Counted from the first letter of the whole stretch, positions 2,296-63,725 are shown. The stretch: DNA of 63,725 nucleotides, filler included, from Stramenopiles sp. TOSAG23-3 (GCA_900128585.1; 28 parts of 28 records of this genome joined end to end with filler, not necessarily neighbours in it); one strand, 5' to 3'. The notes: a model not told the origin generated them from the letters alone. Made by a program: numbers and translations.

Positions 2296-2390
2296 GGAAT
2301 GCAAACCTAGAATGTCTAAATCTAGATTTCAGTTCGCAGTACATTAATTTTAATTACTTAAATAACAGCCAATTAATTTTCTTATTTTTA
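2296..2390 (+). mobile_element. Interspersed element family A copy
   Basis: GGAATGCAAACC...CAGTACATTAATTTTAATTACTTAAATAACAGCCAA, the exact reverse complement of 43413-43489 over 77 nt. Confidence 0.85.
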
Positions 2391-2532
2391 ATAAGAAAAA
2401 ACAAAAAACTGGCTAATGATATAACCAATAATTTTTTTAATTTTACCACACATTTACTCCTACAAAATATCGTAACACAGAATTAATGAAGATTCTTCTT
2501 TGTTTTCAAAAAATATAATCTCAGAAGATGTA

Positions 2533-4490
2533 TCAGTCTTCCTGTATTGACGCTGCAAAATTTACCATTTCATCCATGGAAATGTGGTCATCTTCGTTGA
2601 CATCCATTTCTTTCCACTTCATTCCGGCCTTTGCCGGGTTCATTAAACTCTTAAGAACCTTGTTTTCCGCAAGTATTCCCTGGACGTCCCCATTGAGCTG
2701 TATAGCTTTCATGAATGTGGCGCGAGAAACTGAACCATTGTGGCTTGGGTCTATAATATCAAACACCGATTGGACCAACGCAATCTCCTCGTATCCTACA
2801 GGTAACATTCGCGCTTTCTGCTGTCTCAAGGAATCAACCCGGCGCTTTGCTGCTTTTTGTCTACCAATATTTTGTATTTTAATTGCTGCGTCTACTTGCT
2901 CATTGTGCTCTTCCCTTCTTTGCTTCACGCGTTCCTTTGCCGCTGCTTGCCTTCGAAGGCTCTGGATTTTAATGGCAGCGTCCGTTTGTTGTCGCCGTTC
3001 CTCCTTCAGTCCTTCCACCCGCTTCTTTGCAGCGTTTTGTCGGCCAACGTTCTGTATTTTAATTGCCGCGGCCTCTTCCCGCTTATCTTGGCGTATTTTT
3101 TCCACGCGCTTTTTTGCCTTTTTTTGCCGACTTATTTTTTGGATTTGAGTCGCGGCCGCGGTTTGTTCGCGCTCAATCCTTTTCTGTTCACGGACCGCCT
3201 CCACTCGTTTCTTTGCTGCTCTCTGCCGTCCCACCTGTTGGATTCGCAACGCCGCTGCTTCTCGCTCCGGGTTGTTCACCGCATCTTGGAGTCCCGCGTG
3301 CATGACATCCCCCAGCAACTCTATGGTAGACTCGTGCACAATGGCTTCTGGTGTTTTTGGGCGCGTAAGTGTGTTTTTCTGGTACGCACGCTTTCCACCA
3401 GGAGATTTTAGAATGTCAGAGCTTCGGGGTCTCAACTCGGCACTTTTTACAGACAGCAACTTCTTTCTATTTTTGCGTTGCTGCTTCAAACGCTTCTCCT
3501 CTGGACTTTTCATATGATCCGGAGTTTCGTAGCGTGGGCGCCGGACTTTAATGTCCAGCTTTGACGACGCACTGCGCAAGGCCTTCTTTATGCTTGGGCG
3601 CATGTCTGGAGGTGCATCTGTGGTGGCTTCCAACCGTTGTAAAAACCTGGGCATACCCTTCGGGGCAGAGGTGGGCCTAATGGCTTCCCACAAGTCTGGA
3701 CGGGGGGGCGGGTTGACCAACGGAGAAACACTTAATCGATACAGGTGGGCAATGTCGTCGGTGGACAATTTAGGCGTTCGTTTTCTCCTGCCGTGCGATG
3801 TTGAGCTCCTCTTGCGTGTCGCCTTTCTCTTGCTTTCATCCTTGGGCTCTAGCACGGACTCGAACTTGGCTGATTTAGATTTCTCCTCTGCGAAAAATTT
3901 CACTTTCTTTTTTGGCTTTGGCCTCTTCCGAGAACCTGGAGGGCCGTGTTTTGTCCTCATTTTTTGGGCCTGCCTGTATTCGCGATTCTTTATTTTCAAC
4001 AGTTGCACTTTTTGTTTCCGCTCTAAAATTCTATCCTGCCAGTCCCTATCCATTGCCTCTCGTTCCATTTTTTCCTTTAGTCGCTTTAACTTCACCGCTG
4101 AATTTTTCTCATCGCAGAAAAGTGAGTGAGCATGAGAACTGCCACGACTCTTGGACCGCTTTTCGTATTCTTTCTCTTTTTCGATGTGTTTCTGCACTAG
4201 CAATCTTTCTTGTTTCTCCTGTATTTTTTTCTCTTCCCACTGCCTAAAGTAGACGTCCCTGTCTTCTTGGGTGACATCTTTGTACTGGAGGCGCTTGTCT
4301 ACTTTTGTCGGGCTTACTGTAGGATTGTTCCATAGAGGCTTTTCTTTTTTTGAATCCTCAGCCTCTGTTAATTGAGTTGGCTTCCACCCAGGACCCTCTT
4401 TATGCTGCTTAAATTCCACACCCCTTTTCATCACGTAGTTTTCTACGCTTCTTTGGACGGCCAAATCTTGTTCTAAATTCCTCAGCCACA
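2533..4490 (-). CDS. Tandem IQ-motif (calmodulin-binding) protein with C-terminal EF-hands (5'-partial)
   Basis: Five AA(I/L/T)xIQxxxRQxxAKxRV repeats; DPSHNGSVS and DVNEDDHISMDE EF loops. Confidence 0.85.
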
Positions 4491-4590
4491 NNNNNNNNNN
4501 NNNNNNNNNNNNNNNNNNNNNNNNNNNNNNNNNNTTAATTAATTAANNNNNNNNNNNNNNNNNNNNNNNNNNNNNNNNNNNNNNNNNNNN

Positions 4591-6403
4591 CATACTGTCG
4601 TTTTACATGCTGCTCTGGGTTCACTTTGTCCACTCTGCCCCCTTGAATTTTTTGGTACACCACAGAATCACCAGGTTTGAACGTGCCTGTTGGGGTTTGT
4701 TCGCAGCCCATGCACTGTTTCTCCCCTTGAATCCGGGTCGAACCCCATGATACAAAACTGCAAAAGGCGGCGGGCAACGTTTTGCAACTTTCCAGGCAGG
4801 ATTCAAGGGTGATCCGTGGACCAAACTTTATGGTGTTATCTTGCTCAGAGCAAGCGCGACTGGCCAGTGACCACAGAGGAATGAAGCTGGTTCGAAAGTC
4901 CTTCCCTGAAGACAAGTGCGAACTAGGAATCCCATGCGCTAATTGGCGCTCTTGCATCAGTGTCGATTCTGAGTGCACCACGCTGGCAACTCTGCGCTCC
5001 ATTTGAACCACGAGGCTGTTCCACTCTGCAGTACCAAAGCGAAGGCATTTGGCAAAAGCAAACTGTTGACAAAATTGAACGTTTTGAGGAAACACTGCAT
5101 ACAAACGAAGGCGTGCTTTGTTTTCCAGCGCCGTTATGGCTGCGATTGTCTTCCAAGTTGAGATCGCTGCGGTCTCAAAAAACATTATATCCAGGGAAAA
5201 ATGGCCCCTATCATACGTACAGCGCCCGGGACACACCGTTAAGATTTCAATCGGAATCCTTGTCCCGAGTCGAAGCAATGAACGGAACGTTTTATAGCTT
5301 CTTCCTTCGTCTAAGTACAACAGCAATTTCGGGGTTCCATTGTTGGGGGGAGCCTTCGAAAGTTTTGCCATGACCAGCGCGCCAATTGGATCGTTGCCCC
5401 CTTCTACCCCGCTTTTAATGATACTTTTTGCCTTGTTGCCAAGACACTTGACTTCGTCAAGCTCATTGGCGCCTTTGTCCGAATAAAAATGAACATTGTC
5501 CAGGAAGTGAAAATTGGGGTTGCTGTCGGTGGTCATTATCAGCTCAATATCATCGGGTCTTAGGTCACTGACCCTCGTAAAGTGCCGAGATTTGTGCATG
5601 CACAGAATGCTATTGTACCCCGCGTCGCTCACAAAGTAGGACGATTCAGCCAAACTCCCGTTAAGAGTTTCGTTATCCTTCGTCTCTAGCCAAGCAAACA
5701 CATGGTGAACACCGACTGTCTGTGACATAGAAATAGACGCGGAGAGAATCATGCCCGCATTAGGGATTTCTGGTGGAGGCTGCTCTGCCTTTGACAGGGG
5801 TTTGCACAAGCGTACGCCTCTCCTTGATCTTGGGAGCTTGGACCAGATATTCCACCCTTTCTGCAGATCAGTCCCGAGGCAAAGGTTTAGGGATGGGTAC
5901 AAATTGTGCGCGACCAAAAGACGGACTCTATAATCAATAACAAGGTTTGTGGCCCCATTAACCGTGGCAGTTGTATTATAGGGGTGGACCACTTCCCCCT
6001 GTCGGGGGTATTCAAATTGTACCATGGGGTGCAATGATTCGTCTACGTATGCAAACGGCATGCTTGAAAGGCAGGAACTTCCTTTAAAAATCTCGAAACA
6101 GGTCCATCGTGCGATGTATTCAAAAACTTTCGGCAGTAAATGCGGCAAGACAAAATTTTCAAACTCCGACTCAGATAGTCCCACTAGACGATAACAGCTT
6201 GAAGAGAGTAGTTTGTACCACTCAGACTCAGAGACCAATGCCGGTTCTTTCGGCTCTTGTATTCCACAGAAAGCAGTTTTGTTGTTGACTTCTAGACGAA
6301 ACAACAGAGTCACGGGTGGTAAACCATTGCGGCCATCGTGCGGCTTTGCTGCAACGGCAAGGAGCCCGAACGACCATAACAGACAATGGAACACACCGGG
6401 CAT
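4591..6403 (-). CDS. Secreted hypothetical protein with a PAN/apple-like Cys module (3'-partial)
   Basis: Signal-peptide-like N-terminus; C-terminal TLESCLESC...CSFVSW...C pattern. Confidence 0.6.
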
Positions 6404-6883
6404 TATGTTGAGATCCTAATTTTGGACGCAGACTCTTATATAACAATTATTGGCCACTTTTAATTCGTTGTGCCTCTTCAAAAAATTGCAAGAAGATATG
6501 CCTTCATACATTATGAAATCCTTTCACCACTGCGAAAGCAAATCTTTTCTTTGTCGCAGACATTTGTCATAATTTTGTTGACGATTGTCTGAGGAAGAAA
6601 ATAGTCATATATAATTATTTTATTAATTAATTTATATCTTCTCTTCTTCTTCACATCATCTGATATCATATTATTTCATATTTTATAAACCTATTATTAT
6701 ATAGTCTATTATTATACGACACGAACGTAGGCGAAAGCCAATCTGCACACCCTACTCCCAACTCTAAACTTTACCTCATCCTTNNNNNNNNNNNNNNNNN
6801 NNNNNNNNNNNNNNNNNNNNNNNNNNNTTAATTAATTAANNNNNNNNNNNNNNNNNNNNNNNNNNNNNNNNNNNNNNNNNNNN

Positions 6884-8107: not shown

Positions 8108-8135
8108 AGCAATAAATATTCTAAAAGATTTAATT

Positions 8136-8308
8136 AAAAACAAGAAAATTGGCTGTTATTATAAGTAATTAAATTTAGCTTCCTCATACCCTAATCCTAA
8201 CTTGATTCTGTAATTTTGTTTCTTTGTTGGTTGTCAATCGCCGAAGGGATATAATTTCCAATGAACAATTAAAATATGATAACATTTTTAAAAACAAAAA
8301 ATTGGCTG
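8136..8308. mobile_element. Cluster of element fragments: family B (8136-8187, -), family D (8188-8228, +), short core (8290-8308, -)
   Basis: AAAACAAGAAAATTGGCTGTTATT...AAATTTAGCTTCCTCAT followed by ACCCTAATCCTA..TTGATT. Confidence 0.75.
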
Positions 8309-8325
8309 CAAAACCAACCTAATTT

Positions 8326-9182: not shown

Positions 9183-11174
9183 ATGTTTTTTTTAACGAGG
9201 AGGGTGACCTTGGCGGCCGTGCGGCCCAAACTGTTCTCCACTATGACGGCAGTGCAAGTGCACGAGTTAGGGGACGAGTCAAAGCTTGTTTTGAACCCCA
9301 ACGTACGTGTCCCTGAGATATCGCCCACGGAATGCTTGGTGGAGAACCATTACGCTGGGTTGAATTTCCACGACACGTACACTCGCAGCGGGTTGTACCC
9401 GTTACAGCTTCCGTTTGTCGTTGGCTGCGAAGGCGGTGGCGTTGTGAAGCGGGTCGGCAGCCACGTAACGCACGTTAAGGAAGGCGATCGGGTCGTGTAC
9501 TTGCAAGAGGGCGAAAACGGCAGCTACGCCCAGTACACGAACGTCGAGCACACAAGGCTCATGCCAGTACCGGACGATGTCGATTTGGACATGGCGACTG
9601 CTGCAGCTGTTCAAGGGCTGACTGCCCACTACCTGGTAAACGACAGTTACGCCGTTCAAGACGGTGACTGGTGCCTCGTCCACGCTGCAGCCGGCGGCAC
9701 TGGCCAGATTATTGTTCAAATGGCAAAGAACAAGGGGGCAAGGGTGATAGGCACGTGTTCTACCGCAGAAAAGGCAGAAATAGCAAAGGCCAGGGGCTGC
9801 GATTTTGTTATTTTGACCAAGTCGGACGAGCTTCAAGCCGACGACGACGTTTGGCCCGCATTGGCCGACAAAGTCAAGAAAATCGTGACTGAGAACACGG
9901 ACGGCCCCATTCTTGCGGCAAATTACGGCCCATTGAATTTGAACGACGGTGTACACTGTGTGTTTGATGGGGTTGGAAAACTTAGCGCAATCGCAAGCTT
10001 GGAAAGCTTGCGCCCGAGGGGCACCGCAGTGTTCTTTGGAAACGCAAGTGGTGCGCCCCCAGACATTCCCCCATTGCTACTCTCAAAGCTCGGCAGCCTT
10101 TCCATGACTCGCCCTAAAATGCACGACTTTGTTAGGACGCGCGAGGAGTTGGTGGAGCGGAGCTCAAGTGTGTTTCAAATGCTGCAGAACGGCCAGATAG
10201 GGTTTAGTATTCAGGAGAACGTAAAGTTTTGCAAAGAGGGCGTGGCAAGGGCAACAAAGCTGCTTCAGGAAAGAAAGACGGTGGGGAAGGTCTTGTTCGA
10301 CATTCAGCAAGGTCTTGCCTCCAACCACCAAGCCGCAACAGACATCCTGGCGTCTAGGCAGGCCCGTACTGTCGAAAAAATTGGGAGGATGGAAGCGGCA
10401 ATTATTCCGCTGACGCTAGAAGATGCGTACAGTGTGCAAAATTCTGTGAAAGATGCAATTATTCACCGAGGGAGCGGCGCCACGGAGGTCGTTGGAAAGA
10501 AAATTGCGGCAACGAGCACAATGGCGCAGGAGTCGGTACGTGTCAACGAACCATTCTACGGAAATCTTTTCTCTCACTCGACATTTTCGTCCCCTGCAAA
10601 GATTAATGTCAATAGTGCAGAGTTGGGGCTTCAGGACCAATTCATTTTGATCGAACCGGAGTTTGCCGTCATGATGGCCGAAGATTTGGAGATTGGCACA
10701 GAACACACGTACGACAGCATCAAAGGGAGCATTGGCAGTATTTTTCCAAGCGTCGAAATTGTCACAAGCGCGTTCTCGGTGGAAAACTTTGAAGATTTTA
10801 AAAATGTCGGAGCTCCTTCCCTTATTGCGGACAACGCTAGCCATGGGGGACTCGTGCTGGGGAAGCAGTTTTCTGCCACGGACAACACGAATTTTCCCCA
10901 GGTCTTAGAGGGTTTGAACGATCACAGTTGTTCGTTAGAGGTCAATGGGGACTGGTGTGCGGAGGGAACGGGTGACCGTGTCCTGGGGCACCCTCTTCAC
11001 GCCCTTTGCTGGCTTGCCAACCAGATGGGCAAACGTGGGGAAACGTTGAAAAAGGGCGAGCTGATTACTACCGGGGTAGTCGTTGACAAACTTGTTGTTG
11101 TGAACGTTGGAGACACAGTGAACGTAAATTATGGAGATCTGCTTGGTACAGTGACATTCAGCTTTGAGAAGTAA
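9183..11174 (+). CDS. Fusion of NADPH:quinone oxidoreductase (MDR/zeta-crystallin family) and 2-keto-4-pentenoate hydratase-like FAH domain
   Basis: N-half: GLNFHDTYTRSGLY, GCEGGG, VHAAAGGTG, FGNASG. C-half: EDAYSVQ, IEPEFA, LIADNA, VLGHPL, LKKGELITTG. Confidence 0.9.
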   Translation: MFFLTRRVTLAAVRPKLFSTMTAVQVHELGDESKLVLNPNVRVPEISPTECLVENHYAGLNFHDTYTRSGLYPLQLPFVVGCEGGGVVKRVGSHVTHVKEGDRVVYLQEGENGSYAQYTNVEHTRLMPVPDDVDLDMATAAAVQGLTAHYLVNDSYAVQDGDWCLVHAAAGGTGQIIVQMAKNKGARVIGTCSTAEKAEIAKARGCDFVILTKSDELQADDDVWPALADKVKKIVTENTDGPILAANYGPLNLNDGVHCVFDGVGKLSAIASLESLRPRGTAVFFGNASGAPPDIPPLLLSKLGSLSMTRPKMHDFVRTREELVERSSSVFQMLQNGQIGFSIQENVKFCKEGVARATKLLQERKTVGKVLFDIQQGLASNHQAATDILASRQARTVEKIGRMEAAIIPLTLEDAYSVQNSVKDAIIHRGSGATEVVGKKIAATSTMAQESVRVNEPFYGNLFSHSTFSSPAKINVNSAELGLQDQFILIEPEFAVMMAEDLEIGTEHTYDSIKGSIGSIFPSVEIVTSAFSVENFEDFKNVGAPSLIADNASHGGLVLGKQFSATDNTNFPQVLEGLNDHSCSLEVNGDWCAEGTGDRVLGHPLHALCWLANQMGKRGETLKKGELITTGVVVDKLVVVNVGDTVNVNYGDLLGTVTFSFEK

Positions 11175-13756: not shown

Positions 13757-13758
13757 GA

Positions 13759-13830
<72 letters not shown>

Positions 13831-16569: not shown

Positions 16570-17676
16570 ATGTTGGTGGCAAAGAGGAGCAGGCGAAACC
16601 ACGGTCCAACTAGTGGGCTGTTCCTGAGACAAGAAAATGCCATTGATATTGACTACGAACGCATGCCTCGGCCAGAGTGCAAAAGTAAAAAATGCGAACT
16701 GGACTGCTGCAATGGAAACAAGGAGGAGGTGAGGGACGCGTCGTACGTCATGGAGTGCAGAAAAGCTGCGGTCGACGGCTACTTCCAAGCTGGCGGGCAT
16801 TCAAACGGGCAGTTTGTTATGTGCTTGATTATTGCACGAGGGTTAAAAAAAACAAGGTTGCAGCCGTCCAAGTCCCGGCGATTTGACTCGCGCCCAAGGC
16901 TCCAGGAAGGGCGGTGCATCTGGTGCCGGACCCTCGAGGTAGCGGAAAAAGACGCAAAGCACAATTACCACCCAAGACGATGCCCTAACTACGAGGATGG
17001 CATTAAATGGTTACAAACCCATCCAGTAAGAGTCGCAAAAAAAGAATGGGAGTACTCACTTCCATCATATGATCATAAATTTGCCCCATATGTTGTGTCA
17101 AGGACGTTCTTCCAGAGTTTTTATTGCATCGCTAGTACGGAACGGTTGATTAGGCTGAAACAGATAAGTGCGTCCACAAACCCAAACAAGTGGAGACAGA
17201 AAAGCGGCGCTGGGGGAAAGAACAAACTAGACCATAAAATTCGGGAAAAGTTTTTTGAATTTTTGGGCCGGGTGCCGAAGAAGAGAGTCGTGTCATCCTC
17301 TGGGGAGTTAGAGCGAGTCATGTTTCAAGAGGGTGTCACGAAAGAGGCTTTATGGTACGAGTTTTGCTCCGTTGAAGATCCCTCCTTCCATGGACAGTGT
17401 GTACGAGTAGGACATAAGCTGACGTACACGACCACGCACAAGAACTTTATAACACCTGAAGATGCAGTCTACGAAAATGATTTAGCGAAAGGCAAGATTT
17501 ATCCAGTCATCCGATATCACATGGCCCTGGAACTTATCAAAGCATATAGTGAAGAGAATCATGTCCTGTTTCAAAAAATACCACCTGCACAACGCAGAAA
17601 GCGCAAGCGCAGCGAGTTGGACGAACTAATGTTGGTGGACGATGACAACATGGACATTGAACTTCTAGCTGTTTAA
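16570..17676 (+). CDS. Hypothetical Cys-rich basic protein resembling the N-terminal half of a DNA transposase
   Basis: CKSKKCELDCC, YSL...VSRTFFQSFYCI, TKEALWYEF pattern; C-terminal RRKRKR NLS; no DDE domain. Confidence 0.5.
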   Translation: MLVAKRSRRNHGPTSGLFLRQENAIDIDYERMPRPECKSKKCELDCCNGNKEEVRDASYVMECRKAAVDGYFQAGGHSNGQFVMCLIIARGLKKTRLQPSKSRRFDSRPRLQEGRCIWCRTLEVAEKDAKHNYHPRRCPNYEDGIKWLQTHPVRVAKKEWEYSLPSYDHKFAPYVVSRTFFQSFYCIASTERLIRLKQISASTNPNKWRQKSGAGGKNKLDHKIREKFFEFLGRVPKKRVVSSSGELERVMFQEGVTKEALWYEFCSVEDPSFHGQCVRVGHKLTYTTTHKNFITPEDAVYENDLAKGKIYPVIRYHMALELIKAYSEENHVLFQKIPPAQRRKRKRSELDELMLVDDDNMDIELLAV

Positions 17677-17686: not shown

Positions 17687-17750
17687 AGATTTCAGTTCGC
17701 AGTACATTAATTTTAATTACTTAAATAACAGCCAATTTCCTTGAGTTTTT
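17687..17750 (+). mobile_element. Family A copy
   Basis: AGATTTCAGTTCGCAGTACATTAATTTTAATTACTTAAATAACAGCCAATTTCCTTG. Confidence 0.85.
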
Positions 17751-22408: not shown

Positions 22409-22906
22409 TACGTCTTTTCCTAATACCCCTTGGTACTACAACGAAACGACGATAATTTAAAAATGCAAGATAGAAAGCTTGTAACCAATTAATAAACCAA
22501 TGTTTTCGTGTTGTATATAATCTTTTCTATACTCATTTATCATTCAAATGTATGAATTGCTGATCATTCAAATTCATATATATACTTCTTCGATTACGTT
22601 TTATAACAACACACACTTCTTGACGACTCTTTCATATTTTTTCTTCTTCTTTCTTTCTTCAACCAACTATAACGACGACAATAAAAAATAAAAAAAACCA
22701 ATACTAAACAGCTGTATAAAAAACATGTTTGAATATACTTTTTTTTATAATTTATATAAAGGCGCTATTTTAACACCTCTTCTTCTTCTTCTCCTTGTTC
22801 NNNNNNNNNNNNNNNNNNNNNNNNNNNNNNNNNNNNNNNNNNNNTTAATTAATTAANNNNNNNNNNNNNNNNNNNNNNNNNNNNNNNNNNNNNNNNNNNN
22901 TGCAAG

Positions 22907-31851: not shown

Positions 31852-31870
31852 TTCTTCTTTCTTTCTTTCT

Positions 31871-31933
<63 letters not shown>
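31852..31933 (+). repeat. (TTTC)n microsatellite
   Basis: Tetranucleotide run at a contig end. Confidence 0.97.
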
Positions 31934-41139: not shown

Positions 41140-41280
41140 CTTTCAAGTTGTGTGGTGTGCAATGTGCGTCTGTCTCTCCGGTGTTCAAAACTTGATGGTT
41201 TTTTTATAAAATGCCAAAGGACGAAAACTCGCCATGATAACATAAAGTATCGATTAGTAAAACCAAAAGAGCAAAGATAA
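41140..41280 (+). CDS. 3' end of a hypothetical protein
   Basis: Open frame LSSCVVCNVR...KPKEQR* from the contig start. Confidence 0.35.
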   Translation, partial: LSSCVVCNVRLSLRCSKLDGFFIKCQRTKTRHDNIKYRLVKPKEQR

Positions 41281-41832
41281 GTTCGCAGTACATGAAGGAA
41301 TGTAAACCTTGAATGTCTAAATTTAGAGTTCAGTTCGCAGTACATTAACTTTAATAAAAATAAAACATACTATAAAACATACTATATATTTTGTTTTTTG
41401 ATATGTTTTAAGACTCTCAAGATTATCCCAATTGTAGAACTGATCTAATTTTGCAACTGCTAAAATTCATATGATATCATATCATATCACTTAAAGTCGT
41501 TCAGTACCTCCAATTTAAATTACTTAAAAATAACAGCCAATTTTCTTGTTTTAAGTATCGCAAGCATACTAGGAGAATTAACTGTTCTAAAAATCTGAAG
41601 AAAATAAGATTTTAAGATACTCTTTAAATACGGAGATCTTGATTACCTCAAACTCGTACGGTATCATATGATGTCCCACATCCAGCAACAACTTTGCATT
41701 TTCTAAGAAAATAAAACATTTTTGTACAAAAGTAAAATACAAGCTAAATGGACAAAAGGAGCATATTCATTTTCGCGGTACACGAGAAAGCTAAATTTTA
41801 ATTACTTCAATAACAGCCAATTTTTTGTTTTT
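41281..41832 (+). mobile_element. Same-orientation chain of element fragments (41281-41355, 41405-41418, 41502-41552, 41757-41832)
   Basis: Repeated GTTCGCAGTACAT and AATAACAGCCAATTTT(C/T)TTGTTTT segments, plus a family D start GTTTTAAGACTCTCA. Confidence 0.85.
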
Positions 41833-41864
41833 AAAGAATTCTTTAGAGAGAGGCCGCTTTGCTT

Positions 41865-42914
41865 TTACATTTTGATGCCTTTTCTTTGAATCAGCTCGAC
41901 CCAGTATCCGTCCGGGTCGTACACGAAAGCAAGGGTCTTCATGTTGCCGTCCTGGGGTTTCTTTTTGAACGCGCAGCCTTCCTTTTCAAGAAACTCGCAC
42001 GCTTTGTCCAAATCGTCGCACAAGAATCCAACGTGCCCAAAGCCACGGACTTGTCCTTTGTCTTCGTCGTTGCCATTGTGGTAGGAAAACGTCTCGTCGT
42101 TCTCCGTCCCATGATTGTGGGTAAGCTCAAGCACCGGCTCGTAAGAATTTGTGGCGGAGCTGCCGTCCGGCGCGTGGGACAGAAAGTACAGCGAGAAATC
42201 GCTGTGGTGGCTGGTTCGCAGGAGGTTCATGCCAAGCAAATTCTGGTAGAATTTCAAGGATTTCTCCGGATCTTTTACTCGGAGCATAGTCTGGGCAAAG
42301 GAATACTTCGTCTTTACAGGGCTCTCTCCGCCCCGTTTTACTATTTCAATCCAGTAGCCATCGGGACAGAGCGCAAAGGCCAACCCTTTCATCCGCCCTT
42401 CGTCCGGTCGCTTCTTGAACTTTACCCCGTTATCTTCAAGCTCTTTGGACACTTTGTAGACATCTTCGGTCATTACCGCTATGTGCCCAAATCCCCGGTT
42501 CGGCTCCACATTGCCATTGTTCACTTTGAACGTATCGTCATTTTCCGACCCGTGGTTGTGTGTAAGCTCCAGCGTAACGATACCTTTGGGAAGGTCCCAT
42601 AAAAAGTCCTCAGACTCGGACGTTCCGGCGGGTGGAGCTTTCAGACCGTCTGGAAGGATCGCCAGGAAATACAAAGAGAAATTCCATTGTGGGAAATCGT
42701 AAGAATGTATCAGATCAAATCCAAAGTGCTCTTGGTAAAACGGCACGGTAACTTTTGGGTCTTTGATCCGAAGCATGGTCTGTTGCCAACTAAAGTTGTG
42801 CTTCCTGCCGGCGTCCGCGGTAGACGCTACGCTTGTCATTGTCCTGAAGAAGAGATGTGTTCGTTGTGTCAATGGGTTCTTTAAGCTTGTCCTTAAACAA
42901 AATACCAAACTCAT
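41865..42914 (-). CDS. GLO1: Glyoxalase I (lactoylglutathione lyase), two-domain monomeric type; alternative ATG at 42839
   Basis: Duplicated QTMLR(I/V)KDP, LELTHNHG, GFGH and PDGYW(I/V)E motifs. Confidence 0.97.
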   Translation of the reverse strand: MSLVFCLRTSLKNPLTQRTHLFFRTMTSVASTADAGRKHNFSWQQTMLRIKDPKVTVPFYQEHFGFDLIHSYDFPQWNFSLYFLAILPDGLKAPPAGTSESEDFLWDLPKGIVTLELTHNHGSENDDTFKVNNGNVEPNRGFGHIAVMTEDVYKVSKELEDNGVKFKKRPDEGRMKGLAFALCPDGYWIEIVKRGGESPVKTKYSFAQTMLRVKDPEKSLKFYQNLLGMNLLRTSHHSDFSLYFLSHAPDGSSATNSYEPVLELTHNHGTENDETFSYHNGNDEDKGQVRGFGHVGFLCDDLDKACEFLEKEGCAFKKKPQDGNMKTLAFVYDPDGYWVELIQRKGIKM

Positions 42915-43412: not shown

Positions 43413-43492
43413 TTGGCTGTTATTTAAGTAATTAAAATTAATGTACTGCGAACTGAAATCTAGATTTAGACATTCTAGGTTTGCATTCCTTA
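43413..43492 (-). mobile_element. Family A copy
   Basis: Identical to 2296-2372 on the opposite strand. Confidence 0.85.
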
Positions 43493-47002: not shown

Positions 47003-47174
47003 GCTGTTCTACGTTAGTCGCTGGTGAAGGTCGTAGAAACAAACAAACAAACGGTAGTAAACACAGTACAAAAAACAACAACAAGAAATAATTCGTACTC
47101 CATGATCATGTAATTAATTTCTCATCCTTTCTTTTTAACACAATGGTTCATTAACCAATAAGTCTTAATTCTAC

Positions 47175-47770
47175 TTCACTTCTTCTTCTTTTTCTTACTA
47201 TTAATTTTTTTTGTTCTTGTGTTGTTGTTGTTGTGTTTGTTTTAAAAAAAAATGTTTTTTTATTATTTTTTTTGAATTCTTTTTCTTCTTCTTCTTCTTC
47301 TTCTTCTTCTCTGTTTTTTCTTCTTCTTCCTTTTCTTCTTCTTCTGTTGTTTCTTCTTCTTTCTTCTTCTTCTTCTTATCATTCCAGCTGTTGTTTCTTC
47401 TAATAAATTATCCTCATTCTTCCTATAGTGTTATACTATTATAGGTATAATGTAAGTTAATATAAACATAACATGGTGGTTCTCTTTTCAAATTTTTTTA
47501 TTTTTTTTATTCTTTCTTCTTCTTCTTGTTCTTCTTGTTCTTCTTCTTCTTCTTCCTCTTCTTCTTCTTGTTGTTGTTCTTCTTCTTCTTTCTTCTTCTT
47601 CTTTCTTCTTCTTCTTCTTCTTCTTCTTCTACTTCTTCTTTCTTCTTCTTCTTTCTTCTTCTTCTTCTTCTTCTTTCTTCTACTTCTTCTCTCTTCTCTC
47701 TTCTTCTTTCTTCTTTCTTCTTCTTCTTCTTCTTCTTCTCTTCTTCTTCTTCTTTCTTCTTTCTTCTTGC
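47175..47770. repeat. (TTC)n-rich low-complexity tract
   Basis: Long imperfect TTC/TTTC runs. Confidence 0.95.
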
Positions 47771-47957
47771 GAAAATTTCATCCATCAATCACATATGCAC
47801 ACACATCGAATATCTCATAATATATCTCATCAACAATTTTTTAAAATTTATTTCCTTNNNNNNNNNNNNNNNNNNNNNNNNNNNNNNNNNNNNNNNNNNN
47901 NTTAATTAATTAANNNNNNNNNNNNNNNNNNNNNNNNNNNNNNNNNNNNNNNNNNNN

Positions 47958-50227: not shown

Positions 50228-50315
50228 AAGCTAAATTTTAATTGCATACTTTAAATAACAGCCAATTTTGTGTACAGAATTTAAGATATGATATGATAAA
50301 TGATAAACTGAATTA
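50228..50315 (+). mobile_element. Family B fragment (50228-50270) and family E core (50302-50315)
   Basis: AAGCTAAATTTTAATT...AAATAACAGCCAATTTTG; GATAAACTGAATTA. Confidence 0.7.
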
Positions 50316-50386: not shown

Positions 50387-52397
50387 CTACCTCGGTAAAA
50401 TCTCTGCAGCTTCGCCCATGGGAATTACACTCACCCCAGTTGATACGACCAAAATACCCTCGTTGTGGTACCCGGACAGTTTTGTTGTCGTGTCGCAAGA
50501 ACTTGGTGAACTTCTTTTAACATATTTTAATACTTTCACAGCACTCTGCTCACACTTGGTACTTTTACATGTTCCATCATCAAATTGAATTTCATCAATT
50601 TGTTCTACTGTGCACTCTGGGGCAGGTAATCTACCAACTTTAAGCGGTACAATAGAAATGGTCTCAGAGCAGACTATCTCTTCACCTTGTCGCAGTTCAT
50701 ATCGGTCTAATTTCTTAATAATTTTTGTTTTATACCCGCGAATCATCCAAAGATGTCCCAGCGTCGGGGCGCACTTTAACACGTACTTTCTGGTTGTGAT
50801 AAGGTCATCGTGTGTTGCAGGCAGTGACACAGCAGGTATATTTAATTTTATGAGTAGAGAGATTGGGTCTCCTACGATTCCATATTTGGGAATCTCTACA
50901 GAGGCGTGGGCACTACAAATATTAGTCGCAACCGGAAAAACATCTGGCTTGTTCACACGAGGCATAGAGGCCGTACATTCTGCTATGCATGTATCTGACA
51001 TCTCCCCATCAGCATCATTCGAAAATTTGTATTTCACGATAATTTTTATGCCCGTCTCGTTTCCTTCAGAACTAGGACACTGGAATGTATACGTGAGCGC
51101 TGCTTGATCGTTGTTGTGAAGCACAAGCGGGTAGAGTGCTTGCGCGGGCCTGTTCACTATTTGTAAATTTTCCATGTGCGATTCAACAACGTGAATGCAC
51201 GGGGTATTGTCAACACCCATGCTGTTTTCATCGATCGCTGGAACAAATTCCAGGCCCACTTTTATCGCGCAGAGAGTGGCATTTATGCGTTTTATTACAG
51301 GCTTTAGTTTTAACGTGGGGCGGGTAATCAACGAAGGGTCATAGATGTCAACACAGAAACGTTTGCAAAGCCTCTTGTAAAAAATGTTCTTCGGACTGTC
51401 AAGACCGATGAATGATTTCTGTTTGGTATTAAGATCAAACCGAAGGCCATCACCAATGTATACAGATACTGTTTTTACACAATAGCACCCAGCTTCTTCG
51501 AAAGAATAATTTACAGAAAATCGATTGGACCCTCGGGCCAGTGTTCCGCCAGCATCGTTTATTTTCCCGTCCACACAAGTGCCCGTCACCTTCATCGTGT
51601 TCGTTGCTGGGGCGTTCTTGCTTGCAATATTTAAGTCGGCATATCCAGTGCTGCCGTTCATTGAATCTAACCGACACAATGTAACAATGATATCACTGAC
51701 ACGCAGTGGTTCATTTGTACAATTTTGAACATCGAAGTGAAGGGTCCACGTGCCGGTAGTCACTGCGACACGTGGCACTTCTTCTATTTCGCCAGCCCCC
51801 TTCAGTGGAGGAAACTTTAATGCCAGAAACCCTTGGCCTGAAGATCGGCGCTCATGTTCAGAAAAAGAATAACGAGAATTGACAGTTTCCGATGAAGTTC
51901 TTTCGGATTCGTTTTCTTCTCTTGCGTTTACCACAGCACGAGGGAGTTCGTCTAGCACATGGGGCAAGATGGAGGGCAGCATTTCCGGGCAAGCCTCCAA
52001 AATCGGGGGGTGCAGCAAAGACATAGCACTGTCTATGAACCCGTTTGTATTGCTTAATTTTCTATAGCAATAGGCCAGCCACGTGGTATTTACAGCTTCC
52101 GCTCTTTTCCATCCATCTTGTATGTAAACTTTGTCTATCTGCTTAAAATACTTCACAGCGCCAGCAAAGTTACCACCCGTTACTAAAATCGACGCCATGT
52201 CAGAGTACAGGATTACGGCATGGCGCTTGTACGATATCACTATAGTGTTTCCTTTTGGTTGCCCGGTAAGCTGGGACAGCTCTTCGTAAACTCGTAGCGC
52301 GGGCAAAATGAAAAGGTCGCGTAGCACTTTGATAAAGCCCTTCACAGAAAGGACCATTTCCTCCGTTCTAGAATCGAACCCCAAAATACGAATGTCG
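50387..52397 (-). CDS. TRAPP II subunit TRAPPC10/Trs130-like (5'-partial)
   Basis: YIQDGWK helical region; C-terminal WMIRG and VPLKVGRLPAP motifs. Confidence 0.65.
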
Positions 52398-53283
52398 NNN
52401 NNNNNNNNNNNNNNNNNNNNNNNNNNNNNNNNNNNNNNNNNTTAATTAATTAANNNNNNNNNNNNNNNNNNNNNNNNNNNNNNNNNNNNNNNNNNNNAAT
52501 TATTAATCAAATCAAGGTCGTCTATTACGTGTGCGAACATTTTAAAGTGTACACTAATTGCACTGCGCCAAAACTTCTTTCTTTCTTTGTTTGTTTGTTT
52601 CTTTCTTTCTTTCTTTCTTTCTTTCTTTAAATAATAAATAAAATATGTGATGATTGATTGATTATAATTTTTATCTCAATTTATTCATTCATTCACTTGA
52701 CTTATTTATAGACGACTAGTTGGTATAATTTAATGCTACCTACGTCCTGTTATTATTCGTACCGTACTTCGTTCATTCAATACAGGGGTGTTTTTGTTGT
52801 TGTTTTATTGTTAGTAGGAAGTAGCAAGGCAATAAATAATAAAACAAGAAATAATAAATAAATCCAAAATTTCGTTATGATTTTAACTCCGTGCACATTG
52901 GAAATGCTGTGATAATGTACTACTTAACTGGTAAGAAGAAGAAGAAGAAAGAAAAAAAAGTAAAATGTTGTAGTCTATTATATAATAATATATAATTAAT
53001 ATTAATAATAAATAATAATAATGATGGTGTTATATAGTCTAATAATGGTGTTATATATATTGAGAGAAAGAAAAATCAATCAACATTAAAACAATCAGCA
53101 ATCTTCAATCGAATCCAATCTAACATAATAGGCAAAATCTTTACTTTAATTTAGAAAACAGTAGGCATAGGCAAACCAGTCTATACGGGATTGTACATAT
53201 ATATATTCGCAGTTCAACAGTTTTCATTTCTTGCAACGAGTTTCAGCGCATCGAAACCATCCTTGCAAGCTTGGTAGGGTTCA

Positions 53284-53893: not shown

Positions 53894-54159
53894 ATCATAA
53901 CATTAAATCAAGAAAATTGGCTGTTATTTAAGTAATTAAAATTAATGTACTGCGAACTGAACTCTACTGGTGTGATTTTAGTATAATCAACATTTTATCC
54001 TGAGTGAAAACGCGTTTAACGCCATAAGACCCATAATCAACTTCCTCATCCAATATCTCACTCATAGAAAAAACAAATTATGTAGTATGCTTTAGATCAT
54101 AAACATTAAATGTTTATTTGTGATGTAAGAAAAAAATAACAGCCAATTTTTCTTGTTTT
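53894..54159. mobile_element. Family A insertion 53909-54095 (-) with target-site duplication, plus opposite core 54134-54159 (+)
   Basis: Flanked by ATCATAACATTAAAT (53894-53908) and ATCATAAACATTAAAT (54096-54111). 54028-54068 matches 63673-63713. Confidence 0.85.
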
Positions 54160-54666: not shown

Positions 54667-54805
54667 NNNNNNNNNNNNNNNNNNNNNNNNNNNNNNNNNN
54701 NNNNNNNNNNTTAATTAATTAANNNNNNNNNNNNNNNNNNNNNNNNNNNNNNNNNNNNNNNNNNNNAGGAGACATTGTTCTTGAACTGACACCTTCTTCT
54801 TTTCT

Positions 54806-54883
54806 TTAATTTTAATTACTATAAAAAATAACAGCCAATTTTTCTTGTTTTAATTTATAGATAAACTGAATTAGTTTTTTTTT
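54806..54883 (+). mobile_element. Core copy (54806-54852) followed by family E motif (54859-54883)
   Basis: TTAATTTTAATTACT...AATAACAGCCAATTTTTCTTGTTTT; AGATAAACTGAATTAGTTTT. Confidence 0.8.
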
Positions 54884-56276: not shown

Positions 56277-57033
56277 TTCCAATGAGGCACAGTATATACC
56301 TGTTTCGGAGTGCGTGCAAGCTCTACCGTTTCACCGCGCTAAATCTACTTCCCGGAATGTACCAAGTATTTTACCGCGATGGGTTTCAGTTCTATTGCAT
56401 CACACCGCAGAATCTCTCTGGCATTTGCAAACAATATTAGATAAATACTAAGTAGAGGAGGAAAACAAATATTTACTTTTTCACAATTGTATCGCATCGC
56501 GCATCGCAGGTCGCAGGACCTCTCTCTAACCTTTTTGCAAGCTTCCAGTCATCAAGATTCAAAATGATGCTACTGCTATACTATTGAATAGAGAATTCAT
56601 CATATTATAGTGTGTGAGGAGGCCGCAGCAGAATAGTAACTTTTTACCAGGAGGTTGCTAAAATAAGGCCCTTAAAAAAGCAACTGCTTTTTTTATCTAA
56701 CGCTGTGTGTGTGATACTAATGATTTACAACACACAACATGGAATATATTTTCTCGACTTTTTTTTGTAATTAAAGTTTATTTCCTGTCTAAAATTACGG
56801 CAGGTCTGGGTAAACAAAAGAAATCGAAAGAACTGATTTTTTATAGAGAGACGAAACGAGCCATGATTTTTATTAATTATATCCTAATTGGCACTAATAC
56901 AATATGTATACATAATAGTATGAAAATATGATTNNNNNNNNNNNNNNNNNNNNNNNNNNNNNNNNNNNNNNNNNNNNTTAATTAATTAANNNNNNNNNNN
57001 NNNNNNNNNNNNNNNNNNNNNNNNNNNNNNNNN

Positions 57034-59300: not shown

Positions 59301-59538
59301 GGGCAATCAGACTGCTGTCGTCGCTGGAAACAGAAAGAAAAACATAAATAAAATCCCAAGACATGGCCCCCCAGGGAAGAACAAGGGCAGGAAGAGGCAT
59401 AAGCGGATTCTGAATAGCACACCACGGTCGCTTGGAAACCCAAACATGAGCCACCATTTGCAAAATTTTGATTACGAGACGCCGGAAGAGGCTAAAAGAA
59501 AGCACCGCGAGACCATGATGAAAGAAAAAAGAAAATGA
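59301..59538 (+). CDS. 3' end of a basic hypothetical protein (not in the ORF track)
   Basis: Open frame GNQTAVVAGNRKK...RETMMKEKRK* with TGA at 59536-59538. Confidence 0.6.
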
Positions 59539-59870
59539 CTTAACATAAAACAAGAAAATTGGCTGTTATTTAATGACTTAACATAACAAAAAAATAATGG
59601 CTGTTATTATGAGTACTTAAAATTTACCTTCCTCATGTACCGCGAATATAAATCTGCTCCTTATGACTTAAAATATGTTTATCTTATCAATACTTCCAAA
59701 TCGTATCTCTTACCAAACTGCGCATACTCTTAATTCTTACGTCTTCGCTTAAATAATAACCAAAGTTTTAAGACTCTCATTTTAAATCAAATACTACTTC
59801 AAATCCAACCCTAATCCTATCTCGATTTTTTAATTTGATTTGTGTTATTATAATTTCGCTTAAATAATAA
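59534..59870. mobile_element. Three insertions with target-site duplications: core 59549-59571 (-), family B 59587-59662 (-), family D 59760-59854 (+)
   Basis: AATGACTTAACATAA at 59534 and 59572, ATGACTTAAAATA at 59663; TTCGCTTAAATAATAA at 59744 and 59855. Confidence 0.88.
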
Positions 59871-63021: not shown

Positions 63022-63195
63022 ATGCTGGACAAGTTGGGACCGAACCCGTTCCCCTCGAGTATTCACATGGGAACTGCGCTCAAGTTAGGAATGATAGCGA
63101 AATGCGTCATTGTCGAGAATATGAGCCAGTTCCCTATGGACGAATTTGCTGACGCGGTTTGGACAGGGTTGACGCTGAGGAAAACGAAAATATAA
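63022..63195 (+). CDS. Small hypothetical ORF or terminal exon
   Basis: GC-rich island with an open frame ending at TAA before AT-rich DNA. Confidence 0.3.
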   Translation: MLDKLGPNPFPSSIHMGTALKLGMIAKCVIVENMSQFPMDEFADAVWTGLTLRKTKI

Positions 63196-63377
63196 AAGAG
63201 GCTCTCTACTAATAAAAAATTAAAAAAGAAGAAGATTATTTAACTGCTGCTGTGACAATATTAATATAAAAATAATAATCCTTTTTTTTCTTTTTTTTTT
63301 CGTGTGTTGTTGTTGTTGTTGTTATTATATAATACTTGCATAATTATTTAATTTATTTTTTTCTTCATAGTTAGTAT

Positions 63378-63456
63378 GTTTTAAAACTCTCATTTTAAAT
63401 CAATTACTAATTCAAATCCAACCCTAATCCTATATTGATTTTTTAATTTGATTTTT
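63378..63456 (+). mobile_element. Family D copy
   Basis: Close match to 59765-59841 (GTTTTAA.ACTCTCATTTTAAATCAA...CCAACCCTAATCCTAT...GATTTTTTAATTTGATT). Confidence 0.85.
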
Positions 63457-63559
63457 AGGTTCGTTTCGTCGTTGATGATTGTCAGTCATCACAGAGGAAT
63501 TATTTTTATTCCAATGGAGAAGAATTATTACCAGGTGATAATATTTCTTTTTTTGTGAT

Positions 63560-63725
63560 ACAAGAAAATTGGCTGTTATTTAAGTAATTAAAATGAATGT
63601 ACTGCGAACTAAAATCTAGATTTAGACATTCTCGGTTTACATTCCTTAGGTGGATTAACACTGCCTCCACATGACCCATAATCAACTTCCTCATCCGGTG
63701 TCTCACTCATAGATGACTCATTCCC
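63560..63725 (-). mobile_element. Longest family A copy, runs off the window end
   Basis: Contains all family A segments seen elsewhere; the minus frame reads GNESSMSETPDEEVDYGSCGGSVNPPKECKPRMSKSRF*FAVH. Confidence 0.88.

What the first reader, a model, noticed from the sequence alone, without database searches (positions are those of the whole stretch)
2296..63725. Short retroposon-like family found only just downstream of gene stop codons
Seen: a family with core AATAACAGCCAATTTT(C/T)TTGTTTT has about 15 copies on 10 of 28 unrelated contigs (2296, 8136, 8290, 17687, 41281, 41502, 41757, 43413, 50228, 53909, 54134, 54806, 59549, 59587, 63560). Every copy lies 3' of a gene or putative ORF (two flanking ORFs are weak), mostly within ~200 bp of a stop codon and often between convergent genes. 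I found none in the long AT-rich upstream regions (e.g. 27468-29050, 52498-53283, 56283-56933, 22409-22800, 47003-47857). Copies share the T-rich end and are truncated to different lengths (about 20 to >165 bp) at the other end. Established: a fixed 3' end with variable 5' truncation marks target-primed reverse transcription (non-LTR and Penelope-like elements). Known targeting examples use tRNA genes, rDNA, promoters or telomeres, and Leishmania SIDERs are 3'-UTR retroposons co-opted for mRNA regulation. Inference: an element targeting transcription-termination zones, or one retained there as a 3'-UTR or terminator module.
Basis: partly seen in the sequence, partly recalled or inferred. Interest (0 to 1): 0.9.

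Follow-up and report, generated by a model that had tools for sequence, protein, structure and literature searches.

The report
Retroposon family parked behind gene ends
A young family of short copy-and-paste elements (retroposons) in a compact marine protist genome sits almost only in the DNA just after gene ends, which is a real and strong pattern, though probably an ordinary safe-haven effect and not a new targeting mechanism.

Summary
The window is 28 joined ~2.2 kb contigs of an intron-poor flagellated eukaryote, probably a stramenopile. All 15 listed copies exist, on 10 of 28 contigs. A scan of public metagenome contigs gave 133+ more loci.

In 542 kb, 133 of 140 classifiable copies lie on the 3' side of ORFs and 7 on the 5' side. 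In the window alone the count is 12 versus 1, with equal amounts of flank DNA, equal AT content and equal T|A site density.

The copies are retroposed. They share a fixed 3' end (...AATAACAGCCAATTTTCTTGTTTT) with a sharp boundary. Lengths run continuously from 17 to about 330 bp. Flanking duplications are variable, 5-15 bp: repeats of 8 bp or more flank 49 of 167 copies, against 5-7.5% in controls. The target consensus is TTTT|AA, as for L1. One paralogous empty site and nested insertions were found.

There are no terminal inverted repeats, no tRNA head, no ribozyme and no stable fold. The longest copies are about 1 kb and carry a ~254-aa orphan ORF. No reverse transcriptase was found.

Targeting versus retention by selection is unresolved. 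RNA contigs give a weak hint that one host mRNA ends inside a copy.

The parts
2296..2389 (+). Copy of the main subfamily. Its 5' side is cut by the contig start and its tail is degenerate. It lies 144-237 bp beyond the stop (2533) of the minus-strand EF-hand ORF.
2390..2418 (-). Short degenerate copy in inverted orientation, abutting the previous copy tail to tail.
   Evidence: Read from the sequence; similarity is weak.
8136..8232 (-). Copy with a variant 3'-UTR body (the ...GTTAGGATTAGGGTATGAGGAAGC... type), downstream of the IFT57 ORF and in the same orientation.
8290..8310 (-). Copy of about 21 nt, 16 bp after the IFT57 stop codon (8326).
17687..17750 (+). Copy starting 11 bp after the stop (17676) of the ORF 16570-17676, in the same orientation.
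41248..41358 (+). Internal and 3'-UTR part of a copy that lacks the terminal core. It is followed by a piece of a second repeat family.
   Evidence: (loose ends at 41248 match the family consensus)
41502..41552 (+). Copy of about 50 nt.
41757..41833 (+). Copy antisense to the glyoxalase ORF, with its T-rich end 32 bp from the stop at 41865. RNA contigs of two studies end inside it, at 41784 and 41790.
41865..42914 (-). Host glyoxalase-domain gene whose RNA contigs run into the copy above.
43413..43492 (-). Copy cut at its T-rich end by the contig start. It begins about 26 bp after the stop (43518) of the Rit1-domain ORF, in the same orientation.
50228..50272 (+). Copy cut by the contig start, antisense to the ORF 50387-52396.
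53903..54097 (-). Long copy (~195 nt) that keeps the end of the element's ORF. Together with a 28-nt piece of a second family at its 5' side, it is flanked by a direct repeat, ATTTAATGTT(T)ATGAT. It lies between convergent ORFs.
54131..54158 (+). Short copy (~28 nt), head to head with the previous one.
54767..54851 (+). Copy of the subfamily with a different ORF end (...GGAGGAGATATTGTTCTTGAACTGACACC...). It is cut by the contig start, and its T-rich end lies about 50 bp from the stop (54900) of the GT47 ORF, antisense.
59547..59571 (-). Young 25-nt copy flanked by perfect 13-bp target-site duplications (59534-59546 and 59572-59584). It inserted exactly at the T-rich end of the older copy beside it.
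59585..59660 (-). Older, more diverged copy.
63557..63725 (-). Longest window copy (>165 nt), cut by the contig end. It reads as the end of the element's ORF, then a stop, then the 3' UTR and tail.

Best explanation
This is a young, abundant, lineage-specific family of non-autonomous retroposons, copied into the genome by target-primed reverse transcription of the L1 type.

The full-length element is about 1 kb. It has one ~254-aa acidic ORF without known relatives, a ~150-nt 3' UTR that comes in several variants, and a shared ~45-nt tail (...TTTTAATTACTTAAATAACAGCCAATTTTCTTGTTTT).

Inferred steps: the tail carries an AAUAA-like signal about 22 nt before the 3' end, so the RNA is probably a polyadenylated Pol II transcript with a short A tail. 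A reverse transcriptase and endonuclease supplied in trans by an unseen LINE nicks TTTT|AA sites and copies the RNA from its 3' end. It usually stops early, leaving copies of 17-330 bp between duplications of 5-15 bp.

Shown: each new copy ends in T-run|A, and new copies sit immediately behind old ones in the same orientation. Inferred: that junction recreates a good target, which explains the pattern.

Shown: copies survive almost only in the short 3' intergenic DNA, between convergent genes or 16-400 bp behind a stop codon, in both orientations. Inferred: the main cause is selection. In a genome that is about 63% long ORFs, a module carrying poly(A)-like signals on both strands is tolerated behind genes but not in promoters, 5' UTRs or ORFs. 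Self-seeding of targets adds to the effect. Some host mRNAs probably now end inside copies.
For: Fixed 3' end. In 44 aligned copies the last ~60 nt are 80-99% conserved, and identity falls to background directly after the T-run.

Range of 5' truncation. Anchored similarity runs continuously from <20 to ~330 bp in 212 copies, and 39 are <30 bp.

Target-site duplications. An exact direct repeat of >=8 bp flanks 49 of 167 copies (29.3%), against 4.8% in an offset control and 7.5% in permuted pairs. For >=10 bp the figures are 16.8% against 1.2% and 1.8%. Examples include the window copy 59547-59571 with a 13-bp TSD.

Repeated use of one site. In one contig (locus L024) two differently truncated copies each lie between the same 9-bp repeat.

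Empty site. A 25-bp insertion with a 13-bp TSD sits in another repeat in locus L071, and an uninterrupted paralogue of that repeat is seen in locus L033. There is also a 20-bp insertion with a 5-bp TSD inside an inverted copy.

Target consensus from 46 TSD-defined sites. Positions -4 to -1 are T in 23-26 of 46, +1 is A in 33 of 46, and +2 is A in 27 of 46.

Head-to-tail clustering. Of 75 neighbour pairs <=1 kb apart, 51 are in the same orientation.

Location, from 226 anchors in 542 kb:
- convergent intervals 69
- divergent intervals 1
- tandem intervals 23, of which 21 are nearer the stop
- contig-end intervals beside a 3' end 43, beside a 5' end 4
- inside ORFs 3, all on unrelated contigs
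- on segments without an ORF 83

Null model. 3' and 5' flanks have equal size, AT content and T|A or TTTT|A density, yet hold 12 versus 1 hits in the window and 116 versus 10 in the two related assemblies.

Full-length ~1 kb copies with the ORF are seen. Element sequence is present in metatranscriptome contigs.
Against: - No reverse transcriptase or endonuclease gene was found. The element's ORF has no Pfam family. None of its 122 relatives among 1.84 billion representatives is longer than 270 aa. None of the 58 ORFs lying directly upstream of a copy has an RT or EN domain. These scans used strict E-value cut-offs, and only 113 ORFs in all were scanned.
- Clear poly(A) tails are absent. Only some copies are followed by A-runs.
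- Genes were approximated by ORFs of >=120 aa, so small genes and introns are ignored.
- The extra loci were found through an exact 20-21-nt match, so they favour young copies. They come mostly from two assemblies that are 99-100% identical to each other.
- Selection as the cause of the 3' bias is an inference and no test separates it from targeting.
- About a quarter of the TSDs of >=8 bp could be chance matches, judging from the control rates.
Confidence: 0.8

Rival explanations
1. The retroposition machinery is actively aimed at transcription-termination zones of protein-coding genes. This could work through tethering to 3'-end processing or termination factors, or through open chromatin at gene ends. 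Under this reading the 3' bias is an integration preference and not survivorship.
For: The bias is extreme (133 of 140). It is not explained by AT content or by the density of T|A, TT|AA or TTTT|A sites, which are equal in 5' and 3' flanks. Copies with perfect TSDs, which are therefore recent, are in 3' flanks as well. One site was hit twice.
Against: There is no mechanistic evidence: no RT or EN protein is in hand, so no targeting domain can be examined. Orientation relative to the gene is random in tandem intervals (12 same, 11 opposite). Distances from the stop are broad, with an interquartile range of roughly 70-385 bp, so there is no fixed spacing of the kind seen in tRNA-gene targeting elements. 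Very large populations of marine protists could purge 5' insertions quickly. Repeated hits are explained by the T-run|A junction that each copy creates.
Confidence: 0.25
2. The tail is kept because it works. It would be a portable poly(A) or terminator cassette, usable on both strands, that host genes have adopted, so copies are retained by positive or purifying selection.
For: The sense strand carries AAATAA about 22 nt before the element's end, and the antisense strand carries AATTAAAAT. RNA contigs from two studies cover the glyoxalase gene and stop at 41790 and 41784, inside the antisense copy and about 15-20 nt past that motif. No loose end is listed there. This is a weak hint only: no DNA run was laid and table 7 was cut. 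Three window copies start 11-26 bp after a stop codon (17687, 8290, 43413), so those 3' UTRs must contain them.
Against: Contigs cannot show RNA ends, and repeats break assemblies at exactly such places. Only one locus was laid. The tail is no better conserved than the 35 nt before it. The copies are young, so conservation says little. Many intergenic regions hold several copies, more than a function would need.
Confidence: 0.2
3. It is a MITE or other DNA transposon whose shared end is a terminal inverted repeat.
For: Some copies lie in inverted pairs, such as 53903-54097 with 54131-54158 and 2296-2389 with 2390-2418. The copies are short, numerous and close to genes.
Against: Only 16 of 75 neighbour pairs have the ends-outward arrangement, and their spacings are scattered from 23 to 891 bp, while 51 pairs are direct. 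Flanking duplications vary from 5 to 15 bp. Copies of 17-26 bp with TSDs cannot be two-ended elements. Long copies carry an ORF end and a 3' UTR in one fixed direction.
Confidence: 0.03
4. It is a conserved, non-mobile 3' regulatory motif, or an artefact of assembly or amplification.
For: The location is uniform, the core is short, and several copies sit at contig ends.
Against: TSDs, nested insertions and an empty paralogous site show insertion. The same family occurs in independent assemblies and metagenome contigs, and in contigs of four metatranscriptome runs from four studies. Copies differ by point changes and fall into subfamilies, unlike adapters.
Confidence: 0.02

Closest known systems
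L1-type trans-mobilised non-autonomous retroposons (SINEs, SVA, ORF1-only 'half-L1' elements, processed retrocopies)
   Same: Fixed 3' end, heavy 5' truncation, variable TSDs, a T-rich|AA nick site, possible chimeric copies, and no RT of their own.
   Different: There is no Pol III head: 0 tRNA genes and 0 Rfam hits. There is no long poly(A) tail. The element carries its own orphan ORF of ~254 aa. Many copies are only 17-30 bp. The names of the comparison families are recalled and come from no call.
Leishmania SIDER1/SIDER2 retroposons
   Same: They are short non-autonomous retroposons found almost exclusively in 3' UTRs. Of 1,858 LmSIDERs, 1,356 overlap a 3' UTR, and SIDER2 acts on mRNA stability (PMC2323293, abstract and passages).
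   Different: SIDERs are extinct, with >=12% divergence from their consensus, and share the trypanosomatid 79-bp signature (same paper). I recall, from no call, that their genes are transcribed polycistronically. Here the copies are young with intact TSDs, lie in both orientations, often sit between convergent genes, and have no shown function.
Safe-haven retrotransposons of compact genomes (Dictyostelium TRE elements, yeast Ty1/Ty3)
   Same: They hold a narrow, harmless location in a gene-dense genome (PMC5006619 and PMC5391098, search listing and start of abstracts only).
   Different: Those elements are aimed at Pol III genes at a fixed distance through known protein contacts. Here the location is the 3' flank of protein-coding genes, the spacing is broad, and targeting is not shown.
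MITEs
   Same: Short, numerous and close to genes.
   Different: There are no terminal inverted repeats, the TSD length varies, and the elements are one-ended.
Penelope-like elements
   Same: 5' truncation, partial tandem arrays with occasional inverted neighbours, and variable TSDs. These PLE features are recalled and come from no call.
   Different: No hammerhead ribozyme was found in the window at Rfam gathering scores. No RT or GIY-YIG ORF was seen.

Membership tests
Non-LTR retroposon mobilised by target-primed reverse transcription | Common 3' end with variable 5' truncation | tested here: met
   There is a sharp 3' boundary in 44 aligned copies. Lengths are continuous from <20 to ~330 bp in 212 copies.
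Non-LTR retroposon mobilised by target-primed reverse transcription | Target-site duplications of variable length | tested here: met
   49 of 167 copies have a repeat of >=8 bp, against 4.8% and 7.5% in two controls. Lengths are 5-15 bp.
Non-LTR retroposon mobilised by target-primed reverse transcription | AT-rich nick-site consensus of an APE-type endonuclease (TTTT|AA) | tested here: met
   In 46 sites, positions -4 to -1 are T in 23-26, +1 is A in 33, and +2 is A in 27.
Non-LTR retroposon mobilised by target-primed reverse transcription | Poly(A) or simple-repeat 3' tail | tested here: inconclusive
   The end is a T-run followed by A. Only some copies have longer A-runs.
Non-LTR retroposon mobilised by target-primed reverse transcription | An RT- and EN-encoding autonomous partner in the same genome | tested here: inconclusive
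   None was found among 113 ORFs scanned in 481 kb of flanks or among relatives of the element's ORF. The whole genome is not held.
SINE (Pol III-transcribed) | tRNA-, 7SL- or 5S-derived head with an internal promoter | tested here: not met
   The window has 0 tRNA genes and 0 Rfam families. Long copies have a protein-coding 5' part.
MITE / TIR DNA transposon | Terminal inverted repeats at both ends | tested here: not met
   16 of 75 neighbour pairs are ends-outward, with scattered spacing. 51 of 75 are direct.
MITE / TIR DNA transposon | TSD of fixed length | tested here: not met
   TSDs are 5-15 bp.
SIDER-like exapted 3'-UTR retroposon | Location within 3' UTRs of mRNAs | tested here: inconclusive
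   Copies lie 16-400 bp behind stop codons. At one locus, RNA contigs run from the gene into a copy. UTR ends are not mapped.
SIDER-like exapted 3'-UTR retroposon | Shown effect on mRNA stability or translation | not testable with these tools
   This needs reporter assays or expression data from the organism.
Penelope-like element | Hammerhead ribozyme in the terminal repeats, and an RT plus GIY-YIG ORF | tested here: not met
   Rfam gave 0 hits at gathering scores in the window. No such ORF was seen. The related loci were not scanned with Rfam.
Helitron | 3' hairpin with a CTRR end, a 5' TC end, and no TSD | tested here: not met
   The tail folds no better than shuffles, with z-scores of +0.93 to +1.77. 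TSDs are present. The end is a T-run.

The most novel reading that the evidence does not exclude
The family is aimed at the termination zones of protein-coding genes. This would be a target class not known for any retrotransposon. Its ~45-nt tail would act as a portable, two-strand poly(A) or terminator cassette that convergent gene pairs of this compact genome have come to rely on.
Probability: 0.2. Interest if true: 0.8.

Novelty: new member of a known kind. Interest (0 to 1): 0.55.

Why it matters
It shows how a mobile element can reach roughly one copy per 5 kb in a gene-dense protist genome, about 63% long ORFs, without landing in genes or promoters. It also provides a clean natural data set for separating integration preference from selection: young copies, intact duplications, and many public metagenomes of the same population. 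If host mRNAs really end inside copies, it would be a case outside the trypanosomatids in which a whole retroposon family shapes 3' UTRs. On the practical side, the family breaks short-read assemblies of this organism, since four window copies reach a contig edge, and it should be masked before gene calling.

Tried and rejected
- Whole-genome search: no genome is held for this window, so no assembly-wide census was possible.
- Earlier notes of this scan: nothing by place, by sequence or by words.
- Rfam and tRNA scans of the window: 0 hits each.
- Pfam on the element's ORF and neighbouring ORFs: no family.
- RNA folds of the tail on both strands: no better than shuffles. A stem-loop recognised by a stringent-type RT is therefore not supported.
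- Apparent 3-kb and 1.8-kb upstream similarity between long copies: this was an artefact of inverted neighbours. Real similarity ends about 330 bp upstream of the anchor in pairwise alignments, and about 0.9 kb in the two full copies.
- Presence/absence differences between assemblies: the few overlapping segments are 99-100% identical and show no insertion difference. A looser search found only paralogues.
- A ~900-bp repeat beside copies in three contigs (L069, L002, L016): it has no ORF of note and was not pursued.
- Orientation relative to the nearest stop (87 opposite, 46 same): set aside. The core sits at one end of the element, which biases the choice of 'nearest gene'. Tandem intervals give 12 same and 11 opposite.
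In that laying, 41578-41723 has no RNA cover in any of the 4 runs. A part without cover proves nothing.
- Single-gene metagenome contigs that end inside copies: they cannot be told apart from assembly breaks.
- Literature: the core motif in either orientation, as DNA or RNA, gave only a coincidental primer in an unrelated clinical paper. Searches for 3'-end-restricted retroposons gave SIDER and the tRNA-targeting elements.

Full report
WHAT THE WINDOW IS

The 63,725 bases are 28 separate contigs of 2,162-2,195 bp. They are joined by 44 N, the spacer TTAATTAATTAA and another 44 N. Long uninterrupted ORFs encode IFT57, two dynein heavy-chain pieces, a phytochelatin synthase, a GT47 exostosin, a Rit1-type tRNA-modifying transferase and a glyoxalase. 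The source is therefore an intron-poor, flagellated eukaryote.

The dynein C-terminus has two unnamed relatives at 70-71% identity. The next hits are at about 50%, and the named ones among them include brown algae and oomycetes. A stramenopile is likely but not proven. No whole genome is held for this window.

The stated core gives 9 matches at up to 3 mismatches, against none in 100 shuffles.

Read on the strand that ends T-rich, the copies share ...GTTCGCAGTACATTAATTTTAATTACTTAAATAACAGCCAATTTTCTTGTTTT and then diverge at once. On the other side they stop at different points. Four reach a contig edge, as expected for a repeat that breaks short-read assemblies.

Fourteen of the 15 lie 16-373 bp past the stop codon of an ORF of at least 120 aa. 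The copy at 63557-63725 follows only the remnant of its own ORF.

MORE COPIES FROM ELSEWHERE

Most come from two assemblies that are 99-100% identical to each other where they overlap. They also match window contig ends at 99-100% identity. The rest are scattered metagenome contigs.

Merged, the loci give 125 segments and 480,980 bp. With the window this is 542 kb, holding 226 matches to the 13-nt core at up to one mismatch. ORFs of at least 120 aa cover 63% of this DNA, so the genome is compact and ORFs serve as rough gene proxies.

THE 3' BIAS IS REAL

The 226 matches fall as follows:
- 69 in intervals between convergent ORFs (44 of 57 such intervals are hit)
- 1 in a divergent interval (1 of 27 hit)
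- 23 in tandem intervals, 21 of them nearer the stop (median 152 bp from the stop, 688 bp from the next start)
- 43 in contig-end intervals next to a 3' end
- 4 in contig-end intervals next to a 5' end
- 3 inside ORFs, all on unrelated, bacteria-like contigs
- 83 on short segments without any ORF

Of the 140 classifiable copies, 133 are on the 3' side.

| Data set | Flank | Bases | AT | Hits |
|---|---|---|---|---|
| Window | 3' | 10,095 | 0.659 | 12 |
| Window | 5' | 9,914 | 0.653 | 1 |
| Two related assemblies | 3' | 55,829 | 0.663 | 116 |
| Two related assemblies | 5' | 62,750 | 0.657 | 10 |

Densities of TA, TTAA, TTTTA and TAAAA are about the same in both flank types. Composition and simple target availability therefore do not explain the bias.

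Caveats: ORF proxies ignore small genes and introns. The extra loci were ascertained through the motif, though not through its position.

THE COPIES ARE RETROPOSED, NOT TRANSPOSED AS DNA

Five results support this.

1. The 3' end is fixed. In 44 aligned copies the last ~60 nt are 80-99% conserved, and identity drops to background right after the T-run.

2. Lengths are continuous. Among 212 copies, anchored similarity to unrelated copies runs from under 20 to about 330 bp, and 39 copies are under 30 bp.

3. Even the shortest copies lie between direct repeats of varying length. Examples:
   - the window copy 59547-59571, 25 nt between perfect 13-bp repeats
   - repeats of 9, 10 and 12 bp in other contigs
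   - one contig where two differently truncated copies each sit between the same 9-bp repeat
   
   Statistically, an exact repeat of 8 bp or more flanks 49 of 167 copies (29.3%). An offset control gives 4.8% and permuted pairs give 7.5%. At 10 bp or more the figures are 16.8% against 1.2% and 1.8%.

4. Insertion is seen directly. A 25-bp copy with a 13-bp duplication interrupts another repeat, and an intact paralogue of that repeat is present in a different contig. A 20-bp copy with a 5-bp duplication sits inside an inverted copy of the family itself.

5. The 46 sites defined by duplications of 8 bp or more give a target consensus that is T-rich at -4 to -1 (T in 23-26 of 46), with A at +1 (33 of 46) and A at +2 (27 of 46). 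This is the TTTT|AA type known for L1-like endonucleases; that comparison rests on established knowledge and on no call.

The MITE alternative fails. Of 75 neighbouring pairs within 1 kb, 51 are direct. Only 16 have the ends-outward arrangement, and their spacings range from 23 to 891 bp.

There is no tRNA-like head and no Rfam family in the window. The tail has no stable fold on either strand, with z-scores of +0.93 to +1.77.

ANATOMY OF THE ELEMENT

Longer copies read, in the T-ending direction, as the end of an ORF (...DEEVDYGS...), then a stop, then a 3' UTR of about 150 nt, then the tail. Subfamilies differ in the UTR body, and one differs in the ORF end. They share a coding stretch (...RQRAP.K.L.RC...) and the last ~45 nt.

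Two essentially full copies of about 1 kb align at 72% over 908 nt. One has an intact 254-aa acidic ORF and the other a broken one. They share a 5' end.

The ORF has no Pfam family. Among 1.84 billion cluster representatives it finds 122 relatives, none longer than 270 aa. It is therefore not the end of a longer RT protein.

All 58 ORFs lying within 700 bp upstream of a copy and in its orientation were scanned: 31 at E<=1e-12 and 27 at E<=1e-8. Another 55 flanking ORFs were scanned as well. None has an RT or endonuclease domain, and those with a Pfam match have ordinary host-gene domains. The enzyme source is therefore unseen. That is a gap and not a contradiction, because only about 0.5 Mb was available.

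HOW IT PROBABLY WORKS

Shown:
- one-ended copies
- variable duplications
- a T|A target
- head-to-tail clusters
- near-exclusive 3' location in both orientations (12 same and 11 opposite in tandem intervals)

Inferred:
- The tail carries AAATAA about 22 nt before the end, the usual spacing between a poly(A) signal and the cleavage site. The RNA is therefore likely a polyadenylated Pol II transcript with a short A tail.
- A LINE enzyme acting in trans nicks TTTT|AA and reverse-transcribes from the 3' end, mostly aborting early.
- Each new copy ends in T-run|A and so recreates a preferred target with the same polarity. The 13-bp duplication at 59547-59571 shows a new copy inserted exactly at the end of an older one. 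This explains the direct clusters.
- At 53903-54125 a piece of a second T-ending repeat and a truncated copy share one pair of flanking repeats. This may be a template-switch chimera.

WHY ONLY BEHIND GENES

Three non-exclusive readings remain.

1. Selection. A module with poly(A)-like signals on both strands is harmless or useful behind genes and harmful in promoters, 5' UTRs and ORFs. A marine protist with a very large population would purge such copies quickly. I rate this the main cause, at about one half. It is an inference.

2. Active targeting of termination zones. The size of the bias, the matched null and the 3' location of young copies fit it. Against it, spacing from the stop is broad, orientation is random and no protein is in hand. 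I rate it at about a quarter.

3. Adoption by the host as a 3'-UTR or poly(A) module. In four metatranscriptome runs from four studies, contigs cover the glyoxalase gene. In two studies they stop at 41790 (a 1,114-nt contig) and 41784 (a 637-nt contig from a poly(A) library). Both points are inside the antisense copy, about 15-20 nt past AATTAAAAT, and no loose end is listed there. Contigs cannot show RNA ends, repeats break assemblies, table 7 was cut and no DNA run was laid beside them. Separately, three window copies start 11-26 bp after a stop codon, so those 3' UTRs must include them.

COMPARISON AND NOVELTY

The mechanism matches trans-mobilised non-LTR retroposons, and I file the family there. 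The caveat is that the partner enzyme was not found.

It is not a SINE in the strict sense, because it has no Pol III head. It is not a MITE, a Helitron or, on present evidence, a Penelope-like element.

In distribution it resembles the Leishmania SIDERs, of which 1,356 of 1,858 overlap a 3' UTR (PMC2323293, abstract and passages). Those are extinct elements with their own 79-bp signature.

The safe-haven elements of Dictyostelium and yeast target Pol III genes (PMC5006619 and PMC5391098, listing and start of abstracts only).

The core motif does not occur in the held literature apart from a coincidental primer. Four further searches found no description of a retroposon restricted to the 3' flanks of protein-coding genes in a stramenopile. 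Subscription journals and supplements were not covered.

VERDICT

The retroposon reading is well supported. The targeting claim remains open. This is a new member of a known kind with an unusually clean 3' distribution, and it is worth a population-genetic follow-up. Interest 0.55.

Noticed in passing
window 41359-41470 (minus), 54098-54125, 59766-59778, 63379-63391; also many related loci: A second repeat family (...GAGAGTCTTAAAACATACTATATAATTTGTTTTTT) also ends in a T-run. It sits in the same 3' intergenic regions, often directly abutting copies of the main family. It may be another retroposon using the same machinery.
   Followed up: partly
window 13757-13830, 31860-31933, 52585-52630, 25200-25280, 47163-47822: There are (GAAA)n/(CTTT)n and (CTT)n microsatellites and low-complexity tracts, several at contig ends or in upstream regions. 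They account for most other self-matches in the window.
   Followed up: partly
L069:197-1100, L002:114-1005, L016:6178-6681: A ~900-bp non-coding sequence is shared at 81-82% identity by three contigs. In two of them it lies just beyond the T-rich end of a copy. Its nature is unknown.
   Followed up: partly
L025/L026/L032 (one 24.6-kb metagenome contig), about 8.5-15.2 kb: At least six copies of the element cluster here in both orientations between a Kelch-repeat gene and a Sec24 gene. They include the one intact 254-aa ORF.
   Followed up: partly
whole window: The window is a size-sorted slice of a fragmented assembly: 28 contigs of 2,162-2,195 bp. Adjacency of features across the N spacers therefore has no meaning.
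   Followed up: yes
window 9183-11174: One 663-aa ORF joins zinc-type alcohol dehydrogenase domains to a fumarylacetoacetate hydrolase C-terminal domain. This may be a fusion, or two genes read through.
   Followed up: no
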